A stretch of DNA of 63,817 nucleotides, counting the filler, from Perkinsus chesapeaki ATCC PRA-425 (Eukaryota > Protista > Perkinsozoa), in assembly GCA_013115145.1 (NCBI GenBank). It is 8 parts of 8 records of this genome, joined end to end, with 100 filler letters (N's around TTAATTAATTAA, not from the genome) between each part and the next. Parts side by side here need not be neighbours in the genome. Positions count along the whole stretch, not along the records: positions 1 to 26,304 come from JAAPAO010000510.1; positions 26,405 to 47,006 come from JAAPAO010000616.1; positions 47,107 to 52,388 come from JAAPAO010001174.1; 5 more parts are not named here. One strand, given 5' to 3'. Shown one piece after another: positions 524 to 50,100 of the stretch. The notes under the pieces are model-generated. The model saw nothing but the letters and a program-made list of their open reading frames with translations. It had not been told where the DNA came from and did no database searches. Position 1 is the stretch's first letter. Each line of letters begins with the position of its first letter. Made by a program: the position numbers and the translations under genes.

Positions 524-1480
524 ATGGAGGGCCAGACTAACACGATATTTGTCCGTAATCTAGCGGTACAGGCAAATGAGCAGAATCTCCGTGATCTCTT
601 CTCGCGGTTGGACCGGGTCCTAAACGTTCAGATAATGACCTTCCCGGGCACAACACTGAGGTAGCAATACTACTGGGCACCGCACTCGAAAGAATATTTA
701 GATACGCTCGGGTCGACTTCGGTACCTCTAATGGCGTTACTGCGGCCCACTCCTTGAACGGACAACCCTTCCACGGGGTAAGTAATTTACCATCGGAGCC
801 GTCCATAGCCATCCAGGTACCTTTAACTGTCTCCGTCACCGATCCTGTTGCTGGTAATCCCTCCGCGCCAGCTCGAGCTCCTTTGCCTAATCTGGTACTA
901 GTAACAACCTTATAAAGGGGAATTTGGTCTTTTTAGGGTACTGTTGTTCCGCAGCAGCTTTCTGGTGCTGTTACTAGTGTAAGGGGGCATCGGGCCTGCG
1001 GTGGGATATATTACTATTAGATACGCCCACAGCCAGGAGTAGGCGTAACGACCATAGGGGGAGGAGTGAGAGATTCTGGCGAGGAACTTATACTGAATAG
1101 GACGGTGATATTTGGGGGATGATTGGAGGAAGGAGCGGTATGAAATTGATAGGTTTATGTATCGGGTTTGGCGAATCAAGTCACATTAGAGGAAGTGAGA
1201 GGAATGTTTGGCCATTTCGGGGAGATCAAGGAGTCGTCTATCGATGTGGTAAGCGAAAGGTCCCTGGTTCGATTCCCCCCTACAGCACCTTCGCTCAGTC
1301 GCCCTATGACCAGGCGCAGTTTGCCCTGGTTGAGTTCCGTAACGAAGCCGCTGCCCAGGTATGATACTCCAAAGGCATGAGCATCATTATTATGTTTAGG
1401 AGGCGATTAGGGTAGGCGAGATACCGTATCGCGGAAGAGTTGTTCGAGTGGAGAAGGCAAAGGAAACTGTGAAGCTGTAA
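524..1480 (+). CDS. RNA-binding protein with two RRM domains (multi-exon)
   Basis: Spliced reading MEGQTNTIFVRNL...YARVDF...SLNGQPFHGVPLTVSV and VYVSGLANQVTLEEVRGMFGHFGEI...AQFALVEFRNEAAAQEAIRVGEIPYRGRVVRVEKAK; RNP2/RNP1-like motifs and GT-AG introns keep frame. Confidence 0.85.
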
Positions 1481-1499
1481 TGGTGGAGGAGGCCTGGGA

Positions 1500-3860
1500 T
1501 GGATATAGGTCATGTCGAGGTTGGTCTTCGTAGGTACCCACCAACAGATGTTGTTTTCGGCAAGCCAATGACAATTGGACGGCATGTGACACCACTGCTA
1601 CCCGGTAACCCGGGCTCACAGATATCGGGGGCGATGAGGACAAGGTAGGGAGAGGGCGGTGGAGGCAGGGAGAAGTCATAGGGGAACGGCAGATGCTAGG
1701 AGCAGAAGGCCCAGGACGTGCTCTTGTTGATCTACGGCCATATTCACGGGGAAATTTCCACTGTGTTAGAGAGGCTTTTCTGCGAGGGCAGATGACTCCT
1801 TGGGAAGGGGAGGACATAATAGGAGGCTGATAGACAGCGGTTGTGTGATGGGGATATTCAGTGGTAGAGCTGGTATGATTGCTGCACCTAGTTGATACTG
1901 GGTGGTAGGGAGATACAAAGCAAAACAGGGCCACGCTTGGAATACGACGGTACTGAAGCCAGGCAGGCGATGTTGGGCCGTTCATAGTAAAGCTGTAGAA
2001 GGAGCAATGTTTTTACTGATGCTTTGTTGGAACGGCCATGCTCATGTGGTCTAGAGACTCAATGGCACAGCTGGCGATTAGGGGGGGATGGTTGTGGAGA
2101 TGAATGTGTTTTAGGCGTGATGAGATTATAGAGGAAGTGGGAGAAGCGGCGCTGCAGATAGAGGACTGGTTGGAGTCGCGAGGGTGAGGATGGTGAAGGA
2201 GGCATGCAGTAGGTTGTTGATACAGGTATTGGCATCCATCCGAGGAGGCAAGGAGAGTTAGGGACGAGTTTAGACGGAAACATCATGGGCACCACTCGAG
2301 GGATAGTGATAGGGGCTCCCGACGGGGAAGTCGATCATCGAGGGGAGGACATCACCGAAGCCGATCGAGAGAGGATAGGGGGAGAGGTAGTAATGGGGGT
2401 AGGATGGCTGATAGGGGATAGTTGAGGGTTAATAAAGGGGTGATAGGGGATAGTTGAGGGTTAATAATAAAGGGGTGATAGGGGATAGTTGAGGGTTAAT
2501 AAAGGGGTGATAGGGGATAGTTGAGGGTTAATAAAGGGCTGATAGGGGATAGTTGAAGTCCTGGGCGGGCAACCGTAGATTAGGTTGCGCTGCAGCTTCT
2601 CCTCAGATTCTCGAGGAGGATACGAGAGGTCGTCAGAGTCTAGACGTTATAGAGATAGCAAACCATCGGGATACCCTCAACCAACTAGTAACGATGAAGC
2701 TGAGTATTGGAGGGAGATGCGCGGTAAAGGTGGTGGAGGAGGAGGGGGTAGAGGTAATATAGGCGGTGGTATGGGGGGCATCTGTTAGACATCTTTCGGG
2801 GCCTCTAGGGGCATAGTGAATGGACCGTTGATAGCCAGTAGGCGTCTAAATACCGGTATTACCTGCTTTGTTGTCGTCGGTGAAATGCACTCTCTCCCCG
2901 ACAGATGGTTGTGTGGCATAAGCGTCGTTATTGATGATGGCGGTTGTTGTCAGGTTATGGCGGGTATTAGGTCACTGAGCAGTGGGGCTGTTATTATTAT
3001 TATAGTGCTTACCATAAAGGGTATCCTGAACCATTGGTGTTAGTGTTGTTGGAGGGGTGTTATGACGATATAGCTTTATATTATATTTATGACCTCCACC
3101 TCCTTCTTTATTATATGTCGAATAGGGATATTGTTAATAGGAGTTGACGGAGGAGCGGTAGGATGTAGCGGCAGTATGCCACGGAATGCAGGATGCTTTA
3201 ATGAGGAGTGAGTACCGTACGGATAGGGGCAGTAGCAGAACCATGTACGCTGCTGCGGGGCTTGGGGTGATGGGCAGCAGTTATACAGAGGTGCGTGTGG
3301 CTTGGATTTGGTAAAGTAGTGGAACTCCAGGGGATGTTCGTATAGCAGTAAGCTGATAACTATACGAGGGTGGAGGCGGGCTAATTTGGTGACCTACCCG
3401 CTCAGTGTCTGTAGGAAGGGTCGTCGTCTGTGGAATATAATAATAGGCCAGCAAAAGTTAGTTATTCGTGCCTGTCGGTTTCGGGTCGATTGTCTACCAA
3501 GAATGAGCTGTGATGTGTGTCCACATATCTCCAAGGCAAGCGAGTCCTCACCGTGGAGGCCGTTGTGGTTAAGCAGGAAGTGGGGGATAGGGAATCTTTT
3601 GAACTGGCATTTGAACTCTCGAACTCGCCTTACTATTGTTCGATCTGTCAGGTATACCTGCGAGGGTTGCTGCGATACTCTGAGGAGCCCTCGAGGCTTT
3701 TGGGGATGCTGGCATTCGGGCTTCTCCTACGAGGAATGCTGTCCACAGTGTCCGGTGAGACAGTGAATTTCGTGGCGCAGTGACGGTATTCTTGGCAGTT
3801 TCGATCAGATCCTCACTGTTTTTCTCCTAATACACCAATAGACTGTCCATCATGTTGTCG
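1500..3860 (-). CDS. probable multi-exon hypothetical protein (Pro-rich segments), structure unresolved
   Basis: Exon-like fragments and GT-AG signals on the minus strand; no recognisable domain. Confidence 0.25.
2409..2556. repeat. 32-bp tandem minisatellite, about 4.5 copies
   Basis: Unit tgataggggatagttgagggttaataaagggg repeated; one copy has an extra aat. Confidence 0.95.
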
Positions 3861-3898
3861 AGTAGGAGGTGAAGATGAGTGTAGGGCGGATAGGGGGC

Positions 3899-3951
3899 AA
3901 AGATATCTTAAGTTGATGCTTACACTGTAAGCATCAACTTAAGATATCTTT
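3899..3951. repeat. perfect inverted repeat, 26-bp arms, 1-nt spacer
   Basis: aaagatatcttaagttgatgcttaca-c-tgtaagcatcaacttaagatatcttt. Confidence 0.95.
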
Positions 3952-4345
3952 AAGCCTTACACGATACTATTTCCAGACATTCTTAAAGAAGCTCTAGAGC
4001 AAATATATCGCTATAGCAAATAAGAGCTACTATATTATTAAAATTAGTGGTAGCCCTATCTGTTCCTCCACGAGCCAGCTCAACTTTGGTACCTAGAAGA
4101 ATGGAACCAATCGGCGAGATTGTCCTTCCATATTTGTGGTTACCGAAGTTATCTAGCTCCCCGTCGTTTAGGGTCATAGCGACCTGAGTTCGCCACCAAT
4201 AGTGATACCTCTGTAGTGTCCGCAGTATACAAGTAACATGCTTTGAGCCATTGTGTGTTTAGGGCACTGGATTTGACTGTAAGGCTGACTCATTGGAAGG
4301 GCTCTAGAGTATTCATAATATCAGCATGCATATAATTACTTCACT

Positions 4346-5095
4346 GTGTTGAAGTATTCATCCTTGTCAGGTAATGCAGTGCTAGCTGCCCTTGGGTTGT
4401 CGTATCGTCATTGTTGTGAGGGCCACTCTACTATATGTGGTCGTGATGAGGTTGTCACTAATGCTCAGTACGGACAGGATACTTTCGTGGCTGAGTGGTT
4501 CGGATGTGACGCTGTGACGCCGAGAAGGTATATTGATATCGGCGCATTCGATGGGAGAAACTTGAGCTCGACCTACGCACTGGAAAGATACTTCAACTTC
4601 TCTACGGGTATCTGCATCGATGCGCACCCGAAAGATTTTACTGGTCGTAAATGCAGTGTGATTAAGGCGGTGGTCGGCAGTGTCGACGGTGCTGAGGTGG
4701 TGTACAGGAGGATCAGCACGGGACTGCTGGAATCACAGGAAAACTCGGGGAGCGTCTCGTGGGTGGTTGGAGTCCAAGACCAGATGGACAGAACGAAGGA
4801 CGGATTGTTTGTCGATGAGAAATCGATCACGCGATCGATTGGGAGTATCTTACTCGAAGCCCGTTGGCTGCCTGGACCGATAGACTTTATCTCGTTAGAT
4901 GTTGAAGGTTCGGAGCTTGCTGCTTTGAAGGGATTCCCTTTCGACATGTACTGTGTGCGGCTGTGGCTCATCGAAGAGCAGCAGCAGCATTCATCGTATC
5001 ATGAAGCTGTCTCTGAGTTCATGGTAAGTCATGGATATGTAGCAGGTCGACTGGTAGGCCTGGACAGAGTGTACACACCTCAGTTTGAGTGTTGA
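4346..5095 (+). CDS. FkbM-family (Methyltransf_21, Star-like) SAM methyltransferase; true start uncertain
   Basis: AQYGQD, YIDIGAFDG, STYALE and IDFISLDVEGSE motifs in one uninterrupted exon. Confidence 0.85.
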   Translation: MLKYSSLSGNAVLAALGLSYRHCCEGHSTICGRDEVVTNAQYGQDTFVAEWFGCDAVTPRRYIDIGAFDGRNLSSTYALERYFNFSTGICIDAHPKDFTGRKCSVIKAVVGSVDGAEVVYRRISTGLLESQENSGSVSWVVGVQDQMDRTKDGLFVDEKSITRSIGSILLEARWLPGPIDFISLDVEGSELAALKGFPFDMYCVRLWLIEEQQQHSSYHEAVSEFMVSHGYVAGRLVGLDRVYTPQFEC

Positions 5096-5379
5096 AGGTT
5101 GGTTCGACTTGAGTTCAGTTGAGACTAAGGGAAGTTGGACGCCTGGATGGGGCGTCGATCTCACTAGTAGATCCGAGTTAGATCTGAGATGGGGAGTAAT
5201 CGCTGATGGGAGGGCAAGGGAAGAGGAGGAGGCCAGTTGCTTTGTTGGGGGTGCGGGCTGACCTGTTGGTTGGTAGCGAACTGAAACATTACCATAACGA
5301 ATAATAATAAGTTATTTAATTAATAACGTTGCAATCATTTACGGTAAATAATACCAATATATATCGGCAAGGCTCTGTG

Positions 5380-6480: not shown

Positions 6481-6742
6481 TGCGTCCGATTGAGGCAGGT
6501 GGCACTCGGGAGGGTTTGCCTGCTCTGAAAACCAACTGATATAATTTCTAGGATCGCTGAATTGGTTCAAAATCTACACCATGTGTCCTGTGGATCTATG
6601 GAAGGTGTCTTCGCACGGTCAGGGGCCACGTAGTGTTATTAGGTCGGCGGTGCAGCTTTGCAGCAATTCACTCTGTCGAAGTGGACAGGCTCTTTGTGGC
6701 GTAGCGTAGCTGTGATGATAGTAGAGGAAGATACGACAAAGA

Positions 6743-7788: not shown

Positions 7789-7796
7789 GGTAGGTG

Positions 7797-8185
7797 TCAT
7801 GAGAGACTCTTCATTCGATGTGAGTAGGTTGGAGGGTCGGCCTCAGATGGCCGGGATACCATCCCCTCCTCCAGCACCGCAGACGATACCGCGTAGGAAT
7901 GAGAGGTGAATCTACGAGGAGCTGATTCGATCAGGCGCGGCTTCGGAGAGATCTCTCCACGGAGCGCCTGCTGGACGGAGGCGTCGGTTGGAGGAAGGAG
8001 CCACGGGTCGACACCGGAGCGAGTCGTCCACTTCGAGGAGCTATCGTCCATATCATGGCATTGATCCACGTCGAATGGGCTGATGACATTGTTACCTTAT
8101 AGAGGAGGTGTTGCGTTGATGCATATTGATGGCAGCCGTTGGGTCGAATCGGATCGCGCACAGGGGGGTTTACCAATATCTTCAT
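7797..8185 (-). CDS. small two-exon hypothetical protein
   Basis: ORFs 7931-8185 and 7797-8069 appear joinable by an intron. Confidence 0.3.
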
Positions 8186-10194: not shown

Positions 10195-10300
10195 ACTGAT
10201 GTGTTTCACTTCTTCCTTCTCACGCCTGCCTTTTGTTGTTCAATACACTAGGGACAGCTAGAGGTGTCAGAAACCTTAGCTTTCGGCAGCGCTCGGCATA

Positions 10301-26404: not shown

Positions 26405-26477
26405 GAGGAGATATAATAGAAAGGAGTTTGATAGGAAATATGTTACTAGTGATACGGAGGAGGAGATATAATAGAAA
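26405..26477 (+). repeat. 55-58 bp satellite family, copy at contig edge
   Basis: ggaaatatgttactagtgatacggaggaggagatataatagaaaggagtttgata; same unit at 60660-60796 and reverse-complemented at 62337-62408. Confidence 0.95.
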
Positions 26478-26514: not shown

Positions 26515-28138
26515 CTACTTCCTCACCTTATCCATACATCTATCCTCCGACTCACGACGAGGTGCCTTCTTCCTCCTATCAAGGCAGCAATCTCCGAGTT
26601 CCTTTGGCATTCCAACTCCCCAAAGGCTCTCCATCAAACCCGGCAACCGCTGCAAGATATCCAGACACTCTCTTTTCGCCTTTCCAAAGAAGTCTGTGAA
26701 GACTGTGTGATACAAACACCTGCTATATCGCAGACCTCTCCCGTCATCTCCCGAGCACAGGAAGGCTCTTCCATCGCCACTCCGGTCAGCAGGTCCTTCG
26801 ACGCTATATGTCCTCAAATAGGGCCCGAGTGCTGATGTTACAACCGACACTTTCAGGGACAAATTACGCTCATAAAGTTGAGTTGAAACCTGCCTATTCA
26901 CATTATCGAAACCTTCAAGCTGCCTCACCTCGTCCGAAAGGTACGCTTCAAGCTGAGATACCGTGAGGGAAGATTCCCAGTCGGTCGTCGAGGCCATCAG
27001 CACCAGCTTACCAGCAACCCTACTACTATGTAACACAATACAAAGGGAAACGGAGAATGTTGTATAGAACCCTAAGATGTAATGCTATTTAACCAGCGGC
27101 ACTGCTCATGTGCCGGTGACGACAGGTAAGACCATTCTTTAGTCGATACAGATGTTACAGTGTGTCACAAACCACCAGTGACAAGTAGGCAAAATTACAT
27201 TGACATAAAATTAGTCAATCCTACTGATTACCAGCAGCGGCAGCCTGAGCATTCTTACGCGCCCGACTGGATATCAGAGCCGCGCATGTCACTATCACTT
27301 GGGCCTCGCTCAGTTTATTTGAGAAGGGTTGATGGCCCACACCGTAAAGCTCACCCAACTTAACGAACGGCCCTCCCTCTCGAATGGTCACTTCAAGGTC
27401 TGTCGTAAAGTATCCCTTCTCATACCAATTCCGCATCTCGGCAAAGGTGAAGGGTCCCCGCTCGACCCCCCTAGGATCTTTATACCTCCACAGCTTGTGC
27501 CCAGCCGGTATAGCATTCGAAGCCCTCGTGATCGCCTCGACTCGATGCTGCAGTGCTAGCTTCTTCGCAATCTCCTGCTGCTGTTGCTGTTGAGCAGCGT
27601 TCTTCTTGGACCATTCCTCATAGTCCCTCTCAGCCTGAGCTCTCATGTCCTGATGGCTGCTAACGCCCCCTCTGGCGCCCATCGAGCTCGCGTTCGCTGT
27701 GCCGTAGAACTGCCCCGGCACGAACTCCGCCGCGTTCGCCGAGAGAGCCTTCTTATGGGCTTTCGCCGCTCCAGGAAGTCCTCGTCTCAAACCACTGCTG
27801 GTTGAGCTGGTATTGTCATTGATGCTCAGCAGGAGGGTCTTCAAGTCATGGTTGATGCTGGTGTCGTAGATATCAATATCGTCATTCTTTTGAGCATAGA
27901 CCAACTTATCGAGCTCCTCCTCGGTGAGTCTGTGGAAGGTGGTGGCGTCGTTGCCGGACTCGTCGTTGGAGGAATCACTAGGCTGCTGTTGCTTGGAAGG
28001 TTGCTGGGCCTGCTGGAGAGCGGCTAAGGCAGCTTGGTAGGACGGAGTGGCCTTGCTGGCTTCTGGGGAACTGCTTGCATTATGGGGAGGGGTTGAGGAG
28101 CTGGAGTCATCATTAGGTGAAGAAATATCTTGCCCCAT
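26515..28138 (-). CDS. GYF-domain protein with PAM2 motif (GIGYF/CID-like); 3' end approximate
   Basis: LSANAAEFVPG (PAM2) and WRYKDPRGVERGPFTFAEMRNWYEKGYFTTDL (GYF) in the 305-aa first exon; further exons downstream. Confidence 0.85.
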
Positions 28139-28449: not shown

Positions 28450-28489
28450 GAAAATCCGGAGGTCTCGGGTTCGATCCCCGGCAGTGGCA
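28450..28489 (+). pseudogene. isolated tRNA 3'-half-like sequence (Phe-like), no 5' half found nearby
   Basis: gaaaatccgg aggtc tcggg ttcgatc cccgg cagtggc a: variable loop, 5-bp T stem, B-box loop, 7-nt acceptor strand and discriminator A. Confidence 0.75.
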
Positions 28490-33214: not shown

Positions 33215-36200
33215 ATGGCTTCTGCTGCTGTGGAAGGTATAGTTTCTAGCAACCTGCATGCAAATAACGAGGAGCTTGTCGAAGGTAAACTGCTGGACAC
33301 AATACTCGGCCATGTATTGATTACACAGTTGATGATGATGCAACTCCTGAGCTTCTCGAGTCCATTTTGAACGCTGGTGACGAAGAGGTCTTGGAGCGCA
33401 TTCAAGATGGCGACAAAGACGAAGGTGAAGACTCTCGGGCAGTCCCATCTGCATTTTACTCTTAGACGACTTGGATGATTCACTGGGTGATATCGACAAG
33501 CTGCTGGAAGAGACGAGAGCCTCACGTAGGGAAGCATCTCGAAATTCTTACCGTCTTCATCTCACGTTGGCTATGAAAAAGCTGATTGCCTTCCGGAGCT
33601 TTTACCGTAACCTCAGCGCTGATTGTATGTGTGTCTCGTTGGCGAATGGCAGTCCGAGCAGCATTGATAGTGAAGCCCGAAGCAACTTGCTGAGAGAGGC
33701 TTCAGGAACTTCTCCTCCGCCGGAGCCAGTCGAAGAGTTTCGGCTTTCCTTCACACGTGGCTTCTTCCCTCTAACCAGGCCGTTGTGCTTAACATGATCT
33801 GTAGTCTCAATGTCAACTTAGCCACTGCCAGTGGTGCCGAATAGTTCCAATAGGAAAGCCCGAAGCAATTCCATGGGAGATTCTACAAATTTCACCTTCG
33901 CTACGTTTGTTCGAAGACTCTTTGTGAAGGTTTCTGACTTAGCTGACCATTACACTTAACGCTCGAGCCCATTAACTTGTTCCAACGGTACCGCTACCAC
34001 TTTGGCGGGACTGCGGGCTCTACGTAGTGTTAGTCCTTTTGTGCGGTACGGAGCATGTTGAGTGTTCATGGTCAGGGTCGGCGGAGAAGAGGTCCCCGTT
34101 GAAAGCAGACGTCAGAGTTCGACCGCCAGTCGTCGACGACTTTATACGCAATTTTTTTATAAAGTACCTCACGCGGGGAAGTCTCGCCATCATCATCTCG
34201 ATCTCAGAAATGGTTTGAAGCGTTCCCTGGATGCATTCCAGAACGAATGGTACAGTCTGCAGCTGTCAGGCAAGCTTAATGCGACGGCTATGGAAGAGGC
34301 GGTCCCCGATTTGTAAGTCAACGGGTGCCGGTAATTAATTTCCTACCGTTACACAGTCTACTGTCGAGTCACAGTCGAGTGTTCGACACAGTCAGCGAGA
34401 AAGTCTTTAAAGATTCTTTTCGCGGCAGAAAATTTCGAGGCCGCCGCAGTTGGGAAACTTCCTTCCACTAGAGCCAGTCAAAAACACTGATTTAGGTTTT
34501 CTTCGTGGAATCTTTTTGTATGCCCTCATCGTCATCCAACCTAGTCGCGTATCTTCCTCTTCAGATACATGCGTAATCAACAGCTCCTGGACATTATACG
34601 TGCGCAGGAGGTTGAGATGAAGAAGCTCCGCACCGTCGCGGAAAACGCTAAGTAGCTTTCGAGCTCCGATGGACAGTGTCGTCGGCGGAGGGGACGCCAG
34701 TTAGGATGTTTTCAGGAGCTTCTTTGATAAGCTTCGTCAACAGAGGGACTTTCATAGGATGCATCATCGCAGGGTGGTCCAGGAGAAGGAGAAACTTATC
34801 AGTAGGTGCTCGCCCTTGTTGAGGGAATCTAGCCAAAAGAAGACTTTCTTTGGACGCTGCTGGTTTAGAGTGAAAATGTGGCTAGATCTGCGAAGGGAAA
34901 ATGAATGAGAAGATTAAGCTGGACGGTGTAATCGATTTGGGTCTACTTACGCATCGAAGACATAAAATTGATTCTCGAATGGCTAACTTGCTATTACACT
35001 GGCGGTGGATCGTGCTGGTTGCCATGCTCCTTTGTTGATGAGCTAAGATCTTGTCAAGGTGATTTCAAGCGGCTTCGGAGGCACTATGAGCAATACGAGC
35101 CGACACTGACCGAACTGCGCCACAAGTACGAGGTTGCCATGAAAGAGAAGTTCCTGTTGAAGCTGGAACGAGACAAATATGTGAGATTAAGGAAGAACTG
35201 ATTCCGAGACAAAGACGTTTAATATTACTACCGAACTGTGTCATACACGGATGGCTAGAGGTGTCAGAATAGTATCATTTCAGTTGGCGAGGGCATCTGG
35301 CCTGGAAGAGCAACTTGCCAATTCTGAGATAACCAACTCCGCACAGGATGAGTCTCGAGGTAAAGTCTCGTGAGCTTCGAAATCACAATCATCTCCAAAC
35401 TAGACGCCCCCGTAACCCCTCCAGCGGCCGCTCCAGAGACCGCGACGTCGAGCGGTGCGACGGTTAGGAAGGCCGGTGACTCCCCGTGGCCCACTGAGGT
35501 TCGGATGTGACTCGATCTGTTTCGTGATAAGATTTGCTCAGGCTGCATCACAGCAAGCGGCTGCGGAGATGATGGAAAGGCTGGGAGAAAATCCCACTGC
35601 GATTGATGCAAGAAAATGCCTTTGCCGGGGATCGAACCAGAGACCTTTAGGTTACCGACTTGCGATTAGCCAGAACTTTCAAGGCCCATGATGATGGGCT
35701 ATGTAAAGTGGCGCTACATCCTAAAGTCCCTATGGGTGAGCCCATCGACACCCCCATGCGAAGTGGTTTCAGTCATAGATCCATTCAGCCTTACGGAAGT
35801 GTGTTCCTAACGGGAAGGAGAAACAATGAAAATTTTCCCAGACAAATGCGCTTTTATATCAAAAATAAAACATCGACTGCATTCCATCTGGGTCTAGCAT
35901 GCTTTGTCTTAGTTGCCACCACCTCGGATGACTGCACTTGGAAGCTGTGGGCGCTGCCTAGTGGCGAGATACAGATGAACGGCCGAGGCCACAAGGTGAG
36001 ATTTTCGACGCGGGTTTTTTGTACATATCTTCTCGCAGGCGTTCGTTTCCGATATCGCTTTCCATCCAGGCGGGGAGGTGTTCGTCACCACCAGTGGCGA
36101 CCGCAGCGTCAAGGTCTGGAATGTTGTGAAGGTAGGTAACGTGGGGCGTTCCGGCGTAGGAGGAACCCTTCAGGAGCTCTGCTTGACAACGCTCACGGAC

Positions 36201-37492
36201 CACAGCGAGACAGTTTGGAGCGCAGATTTCCACCAGTCCGGAAGCTTCTTTGCCACTGGTAGCACTGACCAAACGGTAAAGATCTTTGACAGCAAGGTGG
36301 GAGAAAGATACTTCTAAGGTCGATGTGTCGCACTTACCGAATACCCGCCTTTTTCTCTATCGAATAGTACCATCATTTTTTATCCAATTTTTCAAGCGTC
36401 AGCGCAACATACCTGCGGTGTTGTCCCCCTCAGAGCCTCCGCTGCCGACAGACGCTCCGAGGACATGTGGATGCAGTCAACAGTGTTCAATTTCAACCGT
36501 GAGTTCTCCGCACCAGCTGGCTCCTCATCGGCAAATCGATCTGTTTGTGGCGCACATACTCCGCAACTTCTCCCGTTAATATTGATCTTTCATATAAGCC
36601 TCACCAGAGATTCACGACTTGTTCAGATTCGCTGGCAACTTGGCGACCGGGTCAGCTGATAAGACTACGTCAGTGTGGGACATGCGAACTGGATTGTGTG
36701 TCCAGACATTTTATGGCCACCGAAATGCTATTAACCATGTCCGTTTCGATTGCAAGGTACCGGAGGCTCTTTTTCTGACACCTCTAGCCACTCCTGATAG
36801 GGCATGTACTTGGCCTCCGCCGATGCTGATGGTGTTGTAAAGGTTTGGGATTTGCGGATGGTCGCGGAGGTGCTTCAAATAGACACCGGCCACATGCCGG
36901 CAAACGAGGTCGATTGGGACATCGCTGGCAAGGTAAGCTCGCCCGCGCCGTGGCTATTAAGACTTGCTGAGGATCCTCCACTCGAAGCCCGCCTTACCTC
37001 TGTGAGTGGAATTTCTACCCCACTGAGTGGAGTCTACGCCGACCAGATTTTCTCGTTTTCTTACTCTCGAGTTTGTAGCCTCATCGATTTGTTACCAGCA
37101 GCACTTTGCTTTTTCGGTTATTTCTTGCCTATCACTTTCCTGCTGAACTTTACCGGTTCACAAGGATTGGTGGGCATGTCAGGTGCTATGTGTGGCATCT
37201 ACGGACTCATCCATCAAGTTCTTTGATGTTTGGCAGAGAAAGTTCTTAATAGCTTTGGAAGGCCATGAAGATTCCGTACGTCTACTGTGGTCGATGGCGT
37301 CATCGAATAGCTGACTAAATAGATTATTAGGCAAAGCTTAACAGTTGCTCGGGATGCTGTTATGAATATCTTGGCGACGGTAATTCACTCTATCAGGTGC
37401 AGTCTGTATGCTTCGACAACAGTGGTGAGGCTCCGAGTCGGTACCTGGTATCGGGCGGTATGGACGGCACATTCAGACTTTGGCAGAAATAG
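33215..37492 (+). CDS. PF20: flagellar central-pair WD40 protein PF20/SPAG16
   Basis: N-terminal VVDDFIRNFFIK and coiled coil ELRHKYEVAMKEKFLLKLERDK, DSPWP, then WD repeats RTFKAHDD...ATTSDDCTWKLW, TDHSETVWSADFH, FYGHRNAINHV, ADADGVVKVWDLRM, YLVSGGMDGTFRLW. Confidence 0.9.
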
Positions 37493-37699
37493 GCATGATC
37501 TTCGTCACCGAATTATGTGGTGTAACTGTGAGTGTTGTGTTGACTAGTTGGTTGGGAATACAATCGTACACCCAAGAAGACGACCGAGCAAGTGAATGTC
37601 AAACCTGCGCGCCGCCGGGGAGCTCTCTCGCTTCACAGAGGTCCGGAGCGACCTTGAGGTTGGACTTCACGGTGGAACGGTTGCGATTGCCGGTATCAG

Positions 37700-39249
37700 A
37701 TGTCTGATGACGATCGGTGCGGAGAGTCAACGGATAATTGGAACTCTGATGACGAGCCACCTGAAGAGCAAGTGAATGACAAGATGATTATCAGTCGAGA
37801 TGGTGCGTCATGTCGAGGAAAAGATGCCCCAAAATAGTCGACGACAGTCCTTAAAATGGTCGCTTAGTGATTTTCTAACGAGTTTGCGGCCAATGAGTAT
37901 TCCGAGATAGATACTTCCGACTTCGCTTGTTTGATGATTCGCCACAGCAGCGATGACTTAACGTGGTTACCTCAGGTTCGTTGGCTCGCACTGTGGTGCG
38001 AGTCGGTAAGGCCGTCGACGGTTCTGACCGTCCCGGCAAGTATGACAGAGTTTGCGTGAAGTAAACAATCATGGCTCAAGTAGGGTCGAGTTATTTCGGC
38101 CCAGGTTCCGAGATGTGTCGGTCAGTGATGACAACGAATGGGTAAGTGTCGACTTCGAGGTAGGGTCATGCGACCCCCGAGTGCCAAGTGCTATCGATGT
38201 CGGTGTGAGGTGAGTGGTGACGGCTGTGGGACTTGCTCCATGCGACTAAGGTACATGACGATTGGGTCCCAGTGTAGACTGGAGTCGTATAATGCAGCTT
38301 GGAGGCATCCTTACCAGGACGAAGCGGATATGTTACGGGGAAAGAGCGTTGCACCATCGAAGAAGAAGTGTGGCTCCTGCTATGACCGTTCTAGTGGAAA
38401 TGATGTTTATTATTTTTCGTTATAAACTTCATAGAGCATCGCTTCATAGAACCCTCAACAGTAGACTTCGAGCGCCGATCTAAGTGTAGGTGATCTAGGT
38501 GTAAGCTGCTCGTTAGTAACCTAGTGCTCAAAGGCCCAGTCCGCACTCATGGCCAAACTGGCAAGCTTAGGTTCCAGTTCATGCTTTCCCCACCGAGCGC
38601 ATCGCCTGTGCTGAACAGTACGCCGATAGGCTTTATTGTGGAGCTCGAGTCTCTCAGTCGCTGTGCTGTATTGCGGGATGACGGTTTGCTCCGGAAATGG
38701 GTGAGTCAAAAGGGAACTTCCTCCTGGAACGCCGAACCGATTTTAGACTATCAAGAAGCGCGACCCTCGAATGGTCTGGAAGGCATCACCGAAGGTCGGC
38801 GATACTATCACGATCGTAAAGGTGAGGACTGCTTAGTGCTTGTGGCGCACAGAACGCGCTCAGGATGGTGGTGCCCCTGAGACTCGCCTGATGAGGGATG
38901 CGTATGTCGACCGAGCGATGGAATCTATGAAGGTGGGCAGGGACGATTTCTTCACTCTTCTGCTCGCCCCTATCATGACAGATCGGCGAGGTTGCACGAA
39001 TCGAAGTCCTGGTTCCTGGCCACCTCGAGACAGTCAACGAGCTCGAGCTTCGAGAGGTTCCTTGCCAATGCGGCACATCTGTTGACTAGTTGGTGGCAGG
39101 TGTACCCCTTTAACGAGATAAAACATCCGCGCGATGATGCAGCTAAGCTCCTTGGGAAGCAGGAGATGCCTCAAGCAATGGGCTTACCGCTGAGTAACGG
39201 CTATCTAGCTCACACTGTGCATCGCGCTCAATGCGTGCAAGGTCAATGA
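37700..39249 (+). CDS. multi-exon hypothetical protein
   Basis: Chain of exon-like ORFs (38524-38880, 38840-39085, 38992-39249). Confidence 0.35.
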
Positions 39250-40110
39250 GACCTACGAATCTGTCTAGCCGGCGCGAAGGTTCAGGAAGCTCGCGATCGT
39301 TGTGCTCTATTGCCAGCACGAGTCTGGTGCAGCCGCTTTGGCTACACTGCTTCAGACTCATCATCGCTGGGGCATCACTTCACTATGATCATTGGGTCTC
39401 AGTGCGCACGGTAGAAGAATAGGATGCTCCATAGTCCGCCTCTGAATTTCCGCAGACGTGCAGTCACGCGCGTGCAGCGCAGTTTGTTCCTTGGTTGATG
39501 CGTATATCTCTATCCTGGAACAGTTGCTGCCGTATCGGCATGTGTGCAGAGCCAACGTCAGTTCTTCTTTGTTGTTTGAGGCCAATGTGGCCTCGAGCTC
39601 GTCAGTCGGGAGCCGCGCTACCGTACAATGTACGGCGTACATCTGCGTGATTTACGAATTATTTTCTCAAGATGGAGATGACATCTCATTCACGTTGGTT
39701 CGCAGTATATTCTCGTTCTCCACGGCAGGTCGAACCCTCGTTGTCGAGGATGACTCCACGGTAACAGTCGGTATTAAAGGGCACTGTGGAGACATAGCTC
39801 ATGTTTTAAGATGGATGTAAGGATCATTCTTCGTTTATTGACGAAGAGCTGGTTGTTGTCACCACCGAGTACCCACCTCTTAGTGACTACATACAATAAA
39901 TGTTCATTATTGGGCGTATCATTTTCGGCAGATGCGGTCGGTACATCGTCCATCCCATTTTCGACGTCATCGTCAGAGGCATGCGCGTCGGCGAGAGGGC
40001 TGAATTTACCGTAGGAGGAATACTGCCGATTAAGACATCATTTCACTCAGGTTCTCCCGGAAGCTGATACGGCGTATTTGTCCGAAGCGAAACTATGCGT
40101 TAATTCCGCC

Positions 40111-41255
40111 ATGGGAGTGGATGTGTTGGCCTCGGGCACGACTACGGAAGAGGCCGTCCGAAAGTGAGTTGCTCCGGAAATTTGGAAGCATCTTTTATCA
40201 GTTGGCACGCTGCAGAGATGAGTTGCGCAATCGAGGAGAAAGTCTCTCTGAGTGCCTTTACTGGTCCCGTTTGCGAAATTGTTCTCATCACTGTGGGAAA
40301 TGATCACCAAGTTGATTCTGAAGGTACACGGATATTGTACTTCATCTTCTATCTGTTTCTTATTCTTCAGGTCAGCTAGGCCGTGCTGCTCTTAGCAAAG
40401 ATACAGGAAACCGTTTATTAGCTCTTGGTGCTCTTGGCGAGGCAAAATCCGAGTAGGAGCAAGACCTCCTTTCCGCCGTGTACTTTGCTCAAGATACATG
40501 CGTGCTCTTGATTCACTAAAGATGGTGTGCACAACTCAAAGTCCTGAATTTTCAGAGGGGAATCCTCTCGAGACTGCTGTAAGCACCGCCTTCAAAGATG
40601 CCCCTGTAGCAGGCCCCTGGTGCAGGTGAACCTAAATCTCGCGTTGGTATGCCTCAAACAAGGGCACCCGGCTGCTGCTGAGGGTTTCGCGAAACGGGCA
40701 AGGGAATTGGATCACACCAGTGTCAAAGCTAAGTGGGCATTACTGCGCAACTCAAGAAACGTGTATTGGTAGATATCGGCTCGCGTTGGCTTTGATAGAA
40801 CAGCACAAAGAAGAGGATGAAGCTATGAGCATGCTCAAAGTACGTACTTCGACGATGCGATGAGGCACCTACTGTCATACCGCGTTTCATAGAAAAGTTG
40901 GTTCCTCGTCAAAGCCAGTATCCCGAATAACCGAGTGCCCTGTTCTTGGCTGTCTTTCCCAAATCCTTGTACATCTTGTATTCCCCTTGTGTTACATTGA
41001 TGTCTTGTATTCCACAGGAAGGCGGTCTTGTTCTCGGTTCAAACAATCTCGCTTTTTCTTTGACTATTATAACTTCACCACTGCTTGAAAGGTGTTCTGG
41101 CGGCTTGTTCGGTGAGGGCCGCTACCGTAGCAAGCTTTTTTCAGGAAATTCGAGACACGTCGGCTGAAGCTCAAGCGCTTATATTACGTCTCAAAACCGA
41201 GCAGAAGATGAAAAAGCGGAAAGAGAGAGAGCTGTTTCAGTCCATGCTGAAGTGA
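40111..41255 (+). CDS. TPR co-chaperone-like protein (FKBP/AIP-type TPR)
   Basis: Spliced KDTGNRLLALG...YMRAL, NLALVCLKQG, KAKYRLALAL, ending KRKERELFQSMLK-stop. Confidence 0.7.
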
Positions 41256-44364: not shown

Positions 44365-46699
44365 ATGACCTCTCCTTCATACTCTTGCTCTTGGCTATCG
44401 CTCATCCTTGTAAGCAAATAACGTTTTACTGCCTCATTAACGTATTCATTCTCTAGTAGTTGCTAACTCCTGGCCTTGACCGCCATTTGCTAGGGATAAT
44501 GTAGCCTTCTCAGATACCACTTATTAGCTCTAAGCTCCACAGCGGTCGAAAAGCTCTTCACACAATACCCCTTCAACCGTCACTAGCTTCAAGTACATCC
44601 TCGTATACCGAAATATAGCAGCATCGTTCTTGCTCAGGGCGGGCTACCAACACGCTGTCATCACTCCTTCAATTGCATCGGTTAGCTCAGACAGAAACCG
44701 TTATGAGTGAGAGCTAGACGAACAAAAGAAACACATTGCGAACTTTTCAGCGGAAATCCCCCTGGCCAATCTGCGGGACACTCAATACGTCGGACCGATA
44801 GGCGTTGGAACATCAGACGATGAAGGCCCCGAGGAAACTGTTAATGTTGTCTTTGACACTGGTAAAATAGAAAGCTTGAAATGGAAGCCTCAGTGCAGTT
44901 GACAGGCTCCACGAATATCTGGATACAATCTGAGTTATGCAAATCACCAGCGTGCATCAATCTTCATCGATTCAACGAGCTTAAGAGCAAAACGTTTATC
45001 AAGTCAAAAAGGTACACCGTCAGTAAGGATAGGCTTCATTCGCCTAGCAGAAGCCGCTACCTTGACATTCTCTTTGGCACGGGCGAGCTACGAGGACTAA
45101 TAGGCGAGGATACGGTATCGGTCGGACCGTACAAGGTGTGGTGGCAACCGAAGGGAGACGGCAGTGGGGGCTTCCGGGATTCAGGTCAGGAACCAAAGCT
45201 TTGCTATGATCAAGCAAGAGATAGGGAAGATCTTTAAGCAAATACCTTTTGAGGGGATACTCGGTTTAGCCTTCCCTAAGATGGCCGCAAGTGAGCCTTG
45301 TGCGAAACATTCCGAGTCGGGCATTGGATTGAGCAGATGGACAATTGCCATTTTTTGATAATGTGATGAGACAGAACGCGTTGGGTGGGCAGAACGAGTT
45401 CAGCTTTTATTTTCAACCGTCACCTGGGAAAGGGTCCGTCATCCTTTTTGGTGGAGTGGATAATAGGTAGGGGCGTCGATCGGGCAATGCAGGGAGCGCA
45501 AAACGGTACTCACTTCTGCAACATATCCGCCGAAGTCAAGGTGAATACCACGAATTGATTAAAGCACTGACAAAGATTTCAGCAATCTGCTTTGGAGTTC
45601 TACAAGTTGTGGAAAAGGACTTCGTTTCGTATTGTAACGCTAATACAGCGATGTTATAAATATATTTGATGATAAGTGATCCTCAATATTGTATTGATAT
45701 CTTTAGTAAAGGTATTATTAGTATCAACATGCATATCTAATTGTCCTATCAAGCTTATGCTTGAGTTGCACGAGCAGTTAGTTGCATAATGTTCTCTTCG
45801 CTGGATTATAGATAGACGCTTTAAAGGATGATAATACGAATAATAATATAGTTTATAATGATAAACGATAATAGATAACCACCGACGGCGCAGTTAATGT
45901 TATTTTTGTAGGCTCTACGATGGACCGATTCGAATGTTCCCAGTTGTCCAAGAATACTATTGGGCAATTGAAGTAGTAGATTTCAGGATTGGTAGGTTGA
46001 GTACCCTAGTTAATATGGAGCATTTACATTAGGTGAAGAATCCTTTATCAGCATTCCATCATTCAGTGCCAGAACCAGAGGGTAGGGGAGCAGACCAAAA
46101 TCGTGGACTCTGTTCGGCAGTTGCGGTTCCGTAGAAGTGTAATTTTCTTAGTTATCGACAACGACCGTCCAGCGTGAATAAAGTCATTTTTGACACTGGC
46201 ACCACGTATTTTGCAGCACCCTCGGCTCTCCTAACACAGTAGAGCTGACAGATTCACCATCGGGCATTTTCTGATTCTCAGGATCTCAAGGAGGCTTCCT
46301 CCAGCACCGTGCGTGGCTGTGGCTGCCCAACCTTGGCAGTACCCAGAAATACATTACTTGCTGAAGGATGAGAACGGCGGACTATTTGATGTGGTGAGAC
46401 ATGCTTACCATTCAAGGACTCTCACCCGCTTCCTCAGGCCGTGCCTGCTACCGAGTACATGCTCGACGCTGGAGCCGGACAGTGTGTTCTTGCATTCATG
46501 CCGATTGATGTCCCAGGAAAGTAAGGCAGAAACGACAGATGCATCCCCTTAGGAATTCATCGCTAGATATGGCCCTGCATTCATACTTGGTGAAGTGTTT
46601 ATGCGGCATTGGTTCACAACGTATGACAGAGGCGACGGCACTCCAGGCAGTGCATTCGTTGGTCTCGCCAGAGCGAGGCACGATTCAAGTGAGCGATAG
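44365..46699 (+). CDS. A1 aspartic protease, plasmepsin IX/X (TgASP3)-like; start uncertain
   Basis: TQYVGPIGVG, VVFDTG-STNIW, LFGTGELRG, IPFEGILGLAFP, EFSFYF, PVVQEYYWAI, VIFDTGTTY, FILGEVFMRHWFTTYDR. Confidence 0.9.
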
Positions 46700-47106
46700 G
46701 TCGAGACGGACGTGGTTGTAAGTGACGGAATTGTTCAGGTTGGTCGCTTCATTCACTTTAATGAAGTGAAAGCCACGCATGAGTGATATCTCAGGCAATC
46801 CTGAGCTCCATGATTTTGCCATCCTCGGAGTTGTTCCAATAATCCGATATGCGTTGTTGTTAAGCAGTTTATACAGTATGATACGCATTGCGCTTTCCGG
46901 TGCAGTTGTTGTTGGTACCAGCCCCCGGGCTGTCACTGGAGAGAACGCGACCCGCCATACGCTAGAGGGATACAGGTCAACCAAAAGTACACTGAGACCT
47001 TGAGCCNNNNNNNNNNNNNNNNNNNNNNNNNNNNNNNNNNNNNNNNNNNNTTAATTAATTAANNNNNNNNNNNNNNNNNNNNNNNNNNNNNNNNNNNNNN
47101 NNNNNN

Positions 47107-47989
47107 ATGCATTAGATATCTCTTCAAGTATCGCTCGCCCAAAGATATTGCACAATTTATGCGCAGTGCGACGCATCAACAGTACCACTACCGTAGTGCT
47201 ATTCCGAATCAGACCATGCAGTGTAAGCGGCCCTGCTGGTATCATTCCAGCACTAGGTCATACAACGAACTAACACCACTGACGGTGATCTATACTATAA
47301 ACAAGCAACATACCTATTAATTATTTAGATAAACTTACTTGCTATTCTAAGCAGCAAAGACCCAGCCTCTCCCAAGGCGATCATGTTACTAATAAGAGTT
47401 AGGAGGAACTGGACGCCGATTATCTGAGCAATGATACTTTCGATGCGCTCAATATATACGTTATTTCCGTACACCGGTGACCATTGAGCGACCCTTTTCA
47501 CCGAAGAGCATCTCCGCAAGGAAACCGTATTCGCGATCTAGAGGCCCAACGCCGTGAGCGCCGCCATATCGTTTGACCTGCAAAAAGACACCCCTAGGGA
47601 TCGAACCAGGGTCGTTTTATTACCGTTTCACAACGCAGGATTCGGACGAGCGTCCATACCATTCCGCCAACTAGACCAGTGAGAAGTGGCGCGAGAATAA
47701 GGCTGAACCAGCCGACGCGAGAAAAGACATATGGAGTCGCGAGATTGGTGGATACTAGGGCGTTGATGCATATCAACATAAATGACCTGAACTTCAACGC
47801 GTGTCTTTCGTCGGTACGAAATGCACGCTTTGACCTCATTTTAATAGACATTATGCCATCCTCCTGCTCCTCCTTAACTACAATAGGCTCTTCAACGGCT
47901 GGCAACTCCGTCATCTGGAATATCTCCGTGGAACTCAACGAAAACCTCAACTTTCTTTCCACTGTGGGAGGGTCTTCTGCAAATGACAC
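47107..47989 (-). CDS. amino-acid transporter (Aa_trans/AAAP family), truncated by gap; upstream exon likely
   Basis: FMLICINALVSTNLATPYVFSRVGW, spliced EYGFLAEMLFGEKG, IIGVQFLLTLISNMIALGE. Confidence 0.7.
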
Positions 47990-49352
47990 CTAATAAAATA
48001 TAAGTTTTACAGTTTAAACGCTTGATCAGTTTTATCGTAAATAGATGCCAAGGAAACTCGATAACTCTACTAAAATTCGCAATGTCCACTATGCGAATCA
48101 CTTACAACATTATACGTAACGATAGTTCAGCGTTTATATTAATAACAAAAGTAATAAAATTTATAGTAGACGTCTCTTTCGATAACACTACCATTAAAGC
48201 TATATAGACATCGTGTAGGTCGTAGACACATAAAATACCAATAAACATTACTTTTAATAACAACACCCAAAACGCTCTTAACGAAGCCTTGTGACCGACT
48301 GATCTACAACCCTGGGGAGGTTCATATATCAACCCCTACTTTCTACCACCCCATACTTCCTGATTTATCGAAACACCGTGAGGATAGCGACATATGGTAC
48401 AAATTAAACCACTCCTTCCCCCATGAGACGCTCAATAGAGGAGCACTCAGACTTGAAGGAATGGCCACCAGTGAACCAAATTTATAAACCAATGTTCATT
48501 TTTCAGGTGCCATTTTAAGGTGCAAAATGTTCCATCAAATAGTTGCGGACAGTTTCGGAAATCGGATGCCTTTCGCGACTTCAGGGACGCTGCTCACTCT
48601 CCGACTTTCAGCATTTCTCGCCATCAGTAGATGAGAACTATCACCAGAAAGATTGGGATATATGCTACTATTAGGCGCTTCCTAGCGTATCCTCCACAAT
48701 GAAGCAGCGTATCGGAACGTCGCCGTTGGCCGTGCTGCGAAGTTGTCCAGGCGTATATGCGAGCCCCTAGTGATATCCGGCATGAAATACATTATAAAGC
48801 TGCTGGAAAATTCTGGAGAAATTGCGCAGCAAATTTTCACTATTCTTTCAAATTTTGAGCGAATTGACAAGCAATAGTATGCATATAGAGAAGTAAACGA
48901 ATCAAGCTCGAATGAATCTTACTACCTTTGGACCTCCCTCTTCGCCTTCAGCAAGATGCGATGACGTTTCAATAATGCAAAATAAAACTTCCAAGAATCA
49001 TACACGCCCGTTCCGAAGCGTTAAGATGCTTTGCAAGTTCAACCTTTGGATTGTGCAATGAAGGCGGCATTCAGGTATGCCTCAACCAATCGAAGTTCTG
49101 GCCTTTTTCTCTCACCCCACCGTGGAGTGAACACGCATTTTCTGAATCGGGCACGCCATTCTAATCGATTTGCGTATGTGTTTTTGTTTTGGTGATCTTG
49201 CGTTCTTAAGGTGAAGTCGACCTTATTTGTATTTTGCGCGCTCAACTTATGGATACTGGGGTGTTGAGAGAAGTCGAGGGGTATCCTTCTTATCATCGAA
49301 GATACAAAACTGGTCGAGTTTTATGCTGTTAGTGTTTGCGCTCGATTTGAAG

Positions 49353-50100
49353 ATGTCCTTTCATCGGGCTTTCGCAAGGGTCGTCTGCAACTACAACAAA
49401 AGTATTGAAGGATCCGTTCCATGGTAATATGGTATCTTAAGTTGAAGCTTGACTTTCATAATTAGGTATCAAGTGAAGCGAGAGAAGTCTCCTTTTCAAC
49501 AGGTTTGGGATGAAGTCTTCACCCCGATATGGTTCAAGCTCGTCAAGGGACCGTAAGATTCCCCCACTCAATCTCCAGTGACTAGCTTCAACGTCAGATA
49601 CGAGCGCTGGGAATATAACGCTCTCGTTGCTCGCTATAGAGGAATGGGTATTATGGCCGATGATGCCATGAACGATAAGGTACCCCGGTTCGATTCTTGG
49701 CGGCGGCATCTCGCTCTCAGGATATGGTCGTTGAACGTGCACTAGATATAATTCCAGAAGATATCAGAATACAAAGGTATAGGCGGATGATGCGAGGTGA
49801 GCAATCCAACCTATAAAGTATTTTTTAGCCGTTTCACCCGTAGGTGCAACCTTAGCTGGTCGTAAGCTTCATTTACCTTTGGAACTACAGAACTACGATC
49901 CTATGGTACCATATATGGCACCGTACATCGAAGAAGCTAAGTTCCAAATGCAAGAAGAACAGGAACTATTGGCATATCATCCTTGGGATCGACGATTGTA
50001 AGCTTCCCTATAGATAACCCATTTTATTTTCCTTAGGTACACTGCGGGTGTGTCGGGTTTCGGCGAGACGAGTATGCACTCTACGTTCTTCACGATGTAG
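49353..50100 (+). CDS. QCR7: cytochrome bc1 complex subunit 7 (apicomplexan-type)
   Basis: Spliced YERWEYNALVARYRGMGIMADDAMNDKDMVVERALDIIPEDIRIQRYRRMMR...LQNYDPMVPYMAPYIEEAKFQMQEEQELLAYHPWDRRLY. Confidence 0.88.

What the first reader, a model, noticed from the sequence alone, without database searches (positions are those of the whole stretch)
1249..49720. Candidate class of tRNA-3'-half-derived spliceosomal introns
Seen: the B-box 10-mer GGTTCGATYC occurs six times by eye on both strands (1266, 28468, 35630 minus, 47600 minus, 49687, 50345 minus). A hand estimate under uniform composition is about 0.25 expected. Four hits lie in 41-65 nt introns of unrelated genes (RRM, PF20, Aa_trans, QCR7), placed by conserved reading frames. 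Most keep tRNA spacing: GGTC-like variable loop, T-stem, TTCGATY loop, 5+7 nt, then GC plus discriminator A. All start near the anticodon region and none has a 5' half. Known: T-arm/B-box geometry; tRNA fragments seed SINEs and retropseudogenes; isolated B-boxes bind TFIIIC. Inference: tRNA 3' halves were inserted and supplied splice sites, an intron-gain route I do not recognise. Alternatives are intronic TFIIIC sites or a source of tRNA-like small RNAs.
Basis: partly seen in the sequence, partly recalled or inferred. Interest (0 to 1): 0.85.

Follow-up and report, generated by a model that had tools for sequence, protein, structure and literature searches.

The report
tRNA-tail mini-introns carrying intact B-boxes
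This stretch of shellfish-parasite (Perkinsus) DNA holds six perfect copies of the signal that marks tRNA genes, three of them clearly inside leftover back halves of tRNA genes and four filling tiny introns (one seen spliced, three predicted); these leftovers likely helped create some of those introns and are likely kept as docking sites for the tRNA transcription factor, neither of which is yet tested.

Summary
In detail: 6 exact GGTTCGATYC matches against 0.17 expected, in Perkinsus chesapeaki-like DNA. Five of six carry GCA at tRNA positions 71-73.

Three (RRM, 28468, PF20) match tRNA 3' halves from position 33-36, also when the B-box is ignored. The other three show little beyond B-box, C48 and (in two) GCA. 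No 5' halves were found.

Four fill 41-50 nt introns. QCR7 is seen spliced. PF20 is a 43-nt GC-AG intron with the element antisense. RRM and the transporter intron are predicted from reading frames. The RRM donor is the anticodon GT of a tRNA-Thr-like half.

There is no excess of decayed B-boxes, and yeast TFIIIC contacts bases on both sides of the B-box (PMC11724288). Selection as lone TFIIIC sites is therefore likely, but unproven. Intron gain is plausible but not shown, because no orthologous genomic DNA was available.

The scan noted the same pattern before in other Perkinsus DNA (10 unchecked notes). My paper searches found no report of it. Verdict: new variant of a known kind; interest 0.6.

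The parts
1249..1298 (+). Predicted 50-nt GT-AG intron of an RRM gene (alternative in-frame acceptor at 1313). Bases 1249-1287 are a tRNA-Thr-like 3' half, positions 35-73, in sense; the donor GT is anticodon 35-36; B-box at 1266-1275; outer T-stem pairs 0 of 3.
   Evidence: Splicing restores the RNP1-like motif and frame (RRM_1 positions 2-30 on the upstream exon). nhmmer E=7.7e-7, model 33-74. 19 of 20 viral loci with the intron's first 14 nt plus B-box spacing are tRNA-Thr.
28450..28489 (+). tRNA-like 3' half (positions 34-73) with paired T-stem and GCA end; B-box at 28468-28477. Not in a demonstrated intron; lies about 300 nt from the apparent start of a GYF-domain ORF on the other strand.
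   Evidence: nhmmer E=9.2e-6, model 36-74; flank-only score 17.4, second best in the window. No homolog found for the overlapping ORF (weak evidence).
35608..35650 (+). Predicted 43-nt GC-AG intron of the PF20-like WD40 gene. Its reverse complement is a tRNA-like 3' end, positions 40-73, followed by TTTT. B-box at 35629-35638 on the minus strand; the acceptor AG is antisense to positions 40-41.
   Evidence: P. olseni proteins P0003-P0006 align gap-free across the junction, exon ending 35607 and next starting 35651. nhmmer E=5.5e-5; best library match is a tRNA-Phe at 22 of 30 non-B-box positions. The database's P. chesapeaki model uses a longer intron 35499-35650, so the element is intronic in both readings.
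47578..47623 (-). Predicted 46-nt GT-AG intron of a transporter-like gene. B-box at 47607-47598 in sense; ends GTC then a T-run, no GCA; flanks not significantly tRNA-like.
   Evidence: The unspliced frame stops inside it (ORF ends at 47597); the spliced frame is open. The downstream exon is covered by contigs, but this junction is not. Flank p=0.07.
49680..49720 (+). 41-nt GT-AG intron of the QCR7 (UCR_14kD) gene. B-box at 49687-49696 in sense, GCA at 49706-49708; the donor falls in an AAG|GT variable-loop-like context.
   Evidence: Contigs of runs X1 and X2 skip exactly these 41 nt (one study, RNA status a guess, contigs 90-95% alike). Weak UCR_14kD match on the upstream exon, E=0.18. nhmmer 8.7 bits against a shuffle maximum of 8.1.
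50333..50362 (-). B-box (50354-50345) with GCA extension, antisense inside a possible coding exon (ORF from 50250). No short GT-AG intron fits around it.
   Evidence: Coding status unconfirmed: the three representative-library hits are unrelated repeat proteins.

Best explanation
These are B-box-bearing pieces of the 3' end of tRNA genes (shown for three, likely for the other three) lying in both orientations, which likely created some of the mini-introns they fill and are likely kept by selection as lone TFIIIC docking sites (ETC-like). Inferred route: short DNA copies of tRNA-gene tails, sometimes with the T-run terminator, are captured into genes, for example as repair filler. A tRNA tail is about the length of a minimal Perkinsus intron and carries ready-made splice signals: GT-AA in a Thr anticodon loop, AG|GT in the variable loop, a T-run as pyrimidine tract, and in antisense CTAAA read as TTTAG. 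An exonic insert can therefore be spliced out and survive. Without an A-box it would make no tRNA, but TFIIIC's tauB module would still bind the B-box and its flanks. Shown: motif excess, tRNA likeness of three, intron context, both orientations. Inferred: insertion, intron gain, selection, binding.
For: Motif excess 6 vs 0.17. tRNA likeness without the B-box: the two best flank-only scores in the window are 1266 and 28468 (19.0 and 17.4; shuffled top mean 13.5, max 17.5); best identity 23, 23 and 22 of 30 against a null maximum of 21 in 1500. Thr register of the RRM donor (89 of 104 unique loci with GTAAG-N4-AGGTC spacing are Thr). TTTT directly after position 73 in 2 of 6, background 0.4%, one of them antisense where splicing does not need it. 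All 4 intronic elements are in introns of 50 nt or less, though such introns are only 23% of intron DNA in the one region mapped (P about 0.003). For selection: one-mismatch hits 5 vs 5.6-6.5 expected and two-mismatch hits 73 vs 75-86; all 6 GGTTCGANNC hits are the single variant GGTTCGATYC (34 of 159 library tRNAs); GCA in 5 of 6 vs 15 of 143 tRNAs; stems broken around a perfect B-box; neutral decay rejected if divergence is 10% or more (P=0.016; 5e-5 at 20%). Antisense copies and no shared RNA fold point to DNA-level reading. Yeast tauB contacts bases upstream of the B-box, and tau91 contacts bases downstream that are conserved among ETC loci (PMC11724288). P. marinus has hundreds of copies of some tRNA genes as source material (PMC3706591).
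Against: No orthologous genomic DNA, so neither intron gain nor cross-species conservation of the motif was tested. Only 1 of 4 introns was seen spliced. At 5% divergence the missing-halo test is not significant (P=0.11), and true divergence is unknown without Perkinsus tRNA genes. Real tRNA-Phe genes can have a 51:63 mismatch (L402, L441, L444) and yeast tRNA-His has T62 (sequence in PMC11724288), so some 'decay' may be native. The library is mostly phage tRNAs; if 35% of source tRNAs ended in GCA, 5 of 6 has P=0.02. The 10-mer was chosen after seeing these hits. Three elements lack clear tRNA flanks. One borderline tRNA-like stretch without a B-box exists (56992-56943, 9.0 bits vs shuffle max 8.1). 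No evidence here that Perkinsus has TFIIIC, and I did not see the letters of the yeast ETC extension. Several earlier scan notes read such elements as functionless relics.
Confidence: 0.4

Rival explanations
1. Neutral intron-forming filler: tRNA-gene tails were captured and spliced out, and so made introns, but bind nothing useful. The B-boxes look perfect only because the copies are young and were found by that very motif.
For: 28468 has a fully paired T-stem, and PF20 is close to a real tRNA-Phe end. 28468 and PF20 share 17 of 20 bases next to the B-box. The halo test is not significant at 5% divergence. Mini-intron enrichment.
Against: RRM has 0 of 3 outer T-stem pairs around a perfect B-box; only one B-box variant occurs in 6 of 6. 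A B-box-blind scan found no equally good relic with a damaged B-box. Neutral insertion should leave many more copies in long introns and spacers than in new mini-introns.
Confidence: 0.3
2. Lone TFIIIC sites in old introns: the introns pre-date the elements, which arrived or evolved inside them and were trimmed to minimal length; the splice-site register with tRNA positions is chance.
For: Both orientations; two copies have no intron. 41-50 nt is the ordinary intron size here (23 of 38 introns are 52 nt or less). TFIIIC contacts explain the variable-loop and 3' likeness. [quoted passage not shown]
Against: tRNA likeness at positions 34-43 in three elements and a T-run in the antisense PF20 copy. 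An insert into an existing 40-nt intron would give 70-80 nt unless trimmed, yet all four are 41-50 nt and three reach a splice site in tRNA register.
Confidence: 0.23
3. RNA-level role: excised introns yield tRNA-like small RNAs, or T-loops are read by tRNA-processing enzymes.
For: Three intronic elements are in sense; two introns fold somewhat better than shuffles (z -1.95 and -2.02).
Against: The PF20 and 50354 elements are antisense to their host transcripts; predicted folds do not form a common T-arm; T-stems are broken.
Confidence: 0.05
4. Chance matches or an assembly artefact.
For: The pattern was chosen after the fact; the scaffold has gaps.
Against: 6 vs 0.17 expected, with independent flank signals; sites lie within genes that align to database proteins and contigs.
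Confidence: 0.01

Closest known systems
Extra-TFIIIC (ETC/COC) sites of yeasts (PMC3395662, passages read; PMC11724288, sections 26-27 and a supplement legend read)
   Same: Lone B-box with no A-box or tRNA; extra conserved bases about 10 nt downstream; orientation-independent.
   Different: Budding yeast has eight such loci, mostly between divergent genes. Here there is about one per 10 kb, mostly inside 41-50 nt introns, with visible tRNA-gene ancestry. Binding is untested, and whether the yeast extension letters equal GCA was not seen.
[quoted passage not shown]
   Same: tRNA-derived sequence carrying TFIIIC motifs, over-represented in introns.
   Different: Those keep both A and B boxes and form a repeat family inside introns; these lack the A-box, are diverse, and make up the intron itself.
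Introners and other intron-generating elements (PMC9860276 and PMC12130899, term searches only; PMC7789003, passages read)
   Same: Extra sequence in genes that is spliced out using sites at its ends.
   Different: No terminal inverted repeats or target duplications seen by eye, no near-identical family (8-17 of 20 flanking bases shared). The word tRNA occurs 0 times in either of the two introner surveys.
Dada transposons targeting tRNA genes in Perkinsus marinus (PMC3706591, parts 1-2 of 4 read)
   Same: A Perkinsus process that splits tRNA genes; the paper also documents high tRNA gene copy numbers.
   Different: Three of the families insert at the A-box sequence TAGCTC, which would leave much longer 3' pieces than the position 34-73 halves seen here; no Dada-like neighbour was identified.
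tRNA-derived SINE heads and tRNA retropseudogenes; orphan tRNA 3' ends at bacterial integration sites (recalled; look-alikes seen)
   Same: tRNA pieces with an intact B-box and a broken stem, or 3' halves starting near the anticodon arm.
   Different: No A-box, body, tail or CCA end here, and no integrated element next to the fragments.

Membership tests
ETC site | B-box consensus without A-box or tRNA gene | tested here: met
   Five of six have no A-box-like motif within about 110 nt upstream; the transporter site has one in its exon, within chance (6.5% per site).
ETC site | Conserved 3' extension about 10 bp beyond the B-box | tested here: inconclusive
   GCA at that distance in 5 of 6, but the yeast extension letters could not be read (papers not held; logo figure not visible).
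ETC site | Bound by TFIIIC without TFIIIB or Pol III | not testable with these tools
   Needs chromatin binding data; TFIIIC in Perkinsus was not documented in the searches.
ETC site | Motif conserved across related species | not testable with these tools
   No genome held; no Perkinsus contigs found in metagenomes.
Spliceosomal intron | GT/GC-AG ends, removed from mRNA | tested here: met
   QCR7 junction seen in contigs. PF20 supported by ortholog alignment. RRM and transporter supported by frame only.
Newly gained intron | Absent at the same position in outgroup orthologs | not testable with these tools
   Only proteins of relatives were available.
Introner | Family of near-identical introns, often with terminal or target-site repeats | tested here: not met
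   Pairwise identity 8-17 of 20 outside the B-box; not reported as a repeat family among the 20 largest shown.
tRNA gene, split or permuted tRNA gene | 5' half present, cloverleaf can form | tested here: not met
   ARAGORN 0 genes; no RF00005 hit; no 5'-half hit above shuffles next to any element.
tRNA-derived SINE | A-box plus B-box head, body, tail, repeated copies | tested here: not met
   No A-box or shared body.
tRNA-gene fragment | In-register likeness to tRNA outside the B-box | tested here: inconclusive
   Met for RRM, 28468 and PF20; not significant or borderline for transporter, QCR7 and 50354. Source genes in the same genome could not be checked.

The most novel reading that the evidence does not exclude
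Perkinsus builds new spliceosomal mini-introns out of tRNA-gene 3' halves across its genome and keeps them because each carries a TFIIIC site. At the density seen here, about one per 10 kb, this would be a grid of thousands of intragenic chromatin-organising sites, and a route of intron gain fed by the cell's own tRNA genes rather than by transposons.
Probability: 0.3. Interest if true: 0.85.

Novelty: new variant of a known kind. Interest (0 to 1): 0.6.

Why it matters
The source of new introns is an open question, and known mass sources are transposons. If tRNA-gene tails seed introns here, presence/absence across three sequenced Perkinsus species would give a direct test with traceable donors. 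If the B-boxes are selected, a relative of dinoflagellates would have lone TFIIIC sites inside genes at far higher density than yeast's eight, which bears on how chromatin was organised near the origin of the dinoflagellate nucleus. If they are neutral, they remain a useful marker of repair-mediated insertion.

Tried and rejected
No whole genome is held for this window, so genome-wide tests were not possible.

The look-up of sequencing runs listed no holder on record as RNA. The two runs laid gave no cover at PF20 or 28468, nor at the transporter junction or 50345. These blanks are no evidence either way.

The metagenome scan with the PF20 alignment found no relative among 596 pattern matches. 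A second metagenome scan for B-box plus GCA with a 51:63 mismatch gave 119 loci: 47 were ARAGORN tRNAs and the rest looked by eye like SINE heads or integration-site halves; none was recognisably Perkinsus. It showed that this mismatch can be native to tRNAs.

Homolog searches for the transporter exon, the ORF over 28468 and the ORF over 50345 found nothing useful.

Rfam gave no tRNA match at any site tried. Permuted or split tRNA genes were rejected for lack of 5' halves. Dada-made halves were rejected because the insertion site is the A-box. A common RNA fold was rejected.

A link to gene starts was considered: distances to apparent start codons run from about 100 to 2400 nt and two starts are tentative, so it is not claimed. 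The stem and end counts for set C were mis-indexed and are not used.

A search for the motif in a Perkinsus intron paper's supplement found only a table of lengths.
Full report
Source. A PF20-like WD40 gene in the window matches a protein named for Perkinsus chesapeaki almost letter for letter in exons, and P. olseni proteins at about 69%. The window is therefore P. chesapeaki-like. No whole genome is held.

The motif. GGTTCGATYC occurs 6 times against 0.17 in 100 shuffles and 0.15-0.33 under Markov backgrounds. Five of the six have GCA 19-21 bases after the first G, that is tRNA positions 71-73. Background is 1.6%, and 0 of 5 one-mismatch and 0 of 73 two-mismatch hits have it. All six GGTTCGANNC hits in the window are this one variant. 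GGTTCAANNC occurs 0 times (2.0 expected). The other five RGTTCRANNC hits begin with A and lack tRNA-like flanks, although two have GC at 71-72. ARAGORN finds no tRNA and Rfam gives no RF00005 match.

Gene context: introns with outside support. QCR7: intron 49680-49720, 41 nt, GT-AG, skipped by contigs of both runs laid. The two runs are one study, their RNA status is a guess, and these contigs are 90-95% alike, so they may come from a second copy. PF20: the gene is on the + strand; P. olseni proteins align without a gap from an exon ending at 35607 to one starting at 35651. That gives a 43-nt GC-AG intron whose reverse complement is the element plus TTTT.

Gene context: predicted and non-intron sites. 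RRM: intron 1249-1298 (or to 1313) restores the frame and the RNP1-like motif. Transporter-like gene: intron 47623-47578 removes an in-frame stop. The sites at 28468 and 50345 are not in demonstrated introns. 50345 is antisense within an ORF of unconfirmed status, and the ORF over 28468 has no homolog found.

Intron size. In the one region mapped, 23 of 38 introns are 52 nt or shorter; they make up 12.5% of the span and 23% of intron DNA. Four of four intronic elements falling in such introns has P about 0.003. This is an estimate from a single 8-kb region.

tRNA ancestry. A matrix from 143 mostly phage tRNA 3' halves scores positions 34-43 at p=0.001, 0.005 and 0.004 for RRM, 28468 and PF20, and 0.63, 0.40 and 0.07 for the transporter, QCR7 and 50354. 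With the B-box ignored, 1266 and 28468 are the two best sites in the window and PF20 is sixth; three unrelated sites in between are at shuffle level. An HMM of 307 tRNAs hits the first three at E=8e-7 to 6e-5 over model positions 33-74, 36-74 and 35-71; the other three score 4.9-8.7 bits against a shuffle maximum of 8.1. Best identity outside the B-box is 23, 23 and 22 of 30 against a null maximum of 21 in 1500 draws, and 15, 17 and 15 for the rest. The library under-represents short-variable-loop and eukaryotic tRNAs, so the weak three may still be tRNA-derived.

Splice sites in tRNA register. Of 20 viral loci with the first 14 bases of the RRM intron in B-box register, 19 are tRNA-Thr, with the intron's GT at anticodon positions 35-36. 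With four bases left free, 89 of 104 unique loci are Thr, 14 are uncalled and 1 is Glu. The PF20 acceptor is antisense to positions 40-41, and the QCR7 donor falls in a variable-loop-like AAG|GT. A T-run follows position 73 in 2 of 6 (background 0.4%), and none ends in CCA. This points to gene copies rather than mature tRNA (inference).

Selection, for. There is no halo of decayed B-boxes: 5 one-mismatch hits against 5.6-6.5 expected and 73 two-mismatch hits against 75-86. Outer T-stem pairs hold in 1, 4 and 4 of 6, against 141, 135 and 142 of 143 tRNAs. Under neutral decay the shortfall has P=0.11 at 5% divergence, 0.016 at 10% and 5e-5 at 20%. No common RNA fold was found, and two elements are antisense to their host frame.

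Selection, against. Some tRNA-Phe genes have a native 51:63 mismatch, yeast tRNA-His has T62, 28468 and PF20 share 17 of 20 flanking bases, the motif was picked after the fact, and one borderline B-box-less relic exists. Selection is favoured but not established.

What TFIIIC reads. Yeast ETC loci are B-boxes with a conserved 10-base 3' extension (PMC3395662, passages). In the yeast structure, tau138 contacts a base upstream of the B-box and tau91 contacts downstream bases conserved among the eight ETC loci (PMC11724288, sections 26-27; the logo figure and the original ETC paper were not visible). [quoted passage not shown] So the variable-loop and 3' likeness fits both ancestry and selection. 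Likeness at 34-43 and the antisense T-run fit ancestry better.

Mechanism. I commit to a combined model at 0.4. tRNA-gene tails captured into genes survive as mini-introns because they are the right length and carry splice-like signals, and their B-boxes are then kept as lone TFIIIC sites. Rivals: neutral intron-forming filler 0.3, TFIIIC sites in old introns 0.23, RNA-level role 0.05, chance 0.01. P. marinus has large tRNA gene families and tRNA-targeting Dada transposons, but three of those families insert at the A-box and do not explain halves starting at the anticodon (PMC3706591, parts 1-2 of 4; its FASTA supplement could not be read).

Literature and earlier notes. Ten searches listed no paper whose title or abstract describes tRNA-half introns or lone B-boxes in Perkinsus. 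Two introner surveys never mention tRNA (PMC12130899, PMC9860276; term searches only). The P. olseni and P. chesapeaki genome paper, which I recall, did not appear in the library and could bear on this. Also seen: PMC6950938, PMC3101222 and PMC7789003 (passages), and PMC3945056 (term search, no alveolate mention). The scan's own notes record the same pattern in other Perkinsus DNA ten times. They are unchecked AI notes, most read the elements as relics, and they are not counted as support.

Verdict. The feature is real and unusual. It is a new variant of known kinds (ETC-like sites; introns from captured filler DNA). Intron gain and TFIIIC binding are untested. Interest 0.6.

Noticed in passing
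window 56992-56943 (minus): Borderline tRNA-like stretch (model positions 5-53, 9.0 bits vs shuffle max 8.1) with no B-box; may be a decayed tRNA pseudogene. Rfam gave no tRNA match.
   Followed up: partly
window about 47680-47580 (minus): A-box-like motifs 62-71 nt upstream of the transporter B-box, in the coding exon, with a T-run after the element. This is a formal Pol III unit, but about one such case in six sites is expected by chance.
   Followed up: partly
window 27187-27946 and 49465-50169: The laid runs hold both identical contigs and contigs about 84-95% alike for genes of this region, suggesting a second diverged gene copy or haplotype.
   Followed up: no
window 33215-41252: Database model P0002 fuses the PF20-like WD40 gene with a downstream gene and skips exon 35542-35607, probably because of the GC donor at 35608.
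   Followed up: partly
window 51981-52439: 153-nt tandem repeat that by eye encodes a Thr-rich, mucin-like stretch running into an assembly gap.
   Followed up: no
window 3898-3954: Near-perfect 25-bp inverted repeat with a 4-nt loop.
   Followed up: no
window 2374-2566: Purine-rich tandem repeat of about 32 nt in a strongly G-skewed region.
   Followed up: no
window 26405-26477 and 60689-60761: Identical 73-nt AT-rich repeat at contig edges beside gaps.
   Followed up: no
L405, L411, L417, L422, L434, L442, L458, L492: Metagenome loci with orphan tRNA 3' parts starting at model positions 26-29 and ending in CCA, as expected (from recall) at integration sites of bacterial mobile elements.
   Followed up: no
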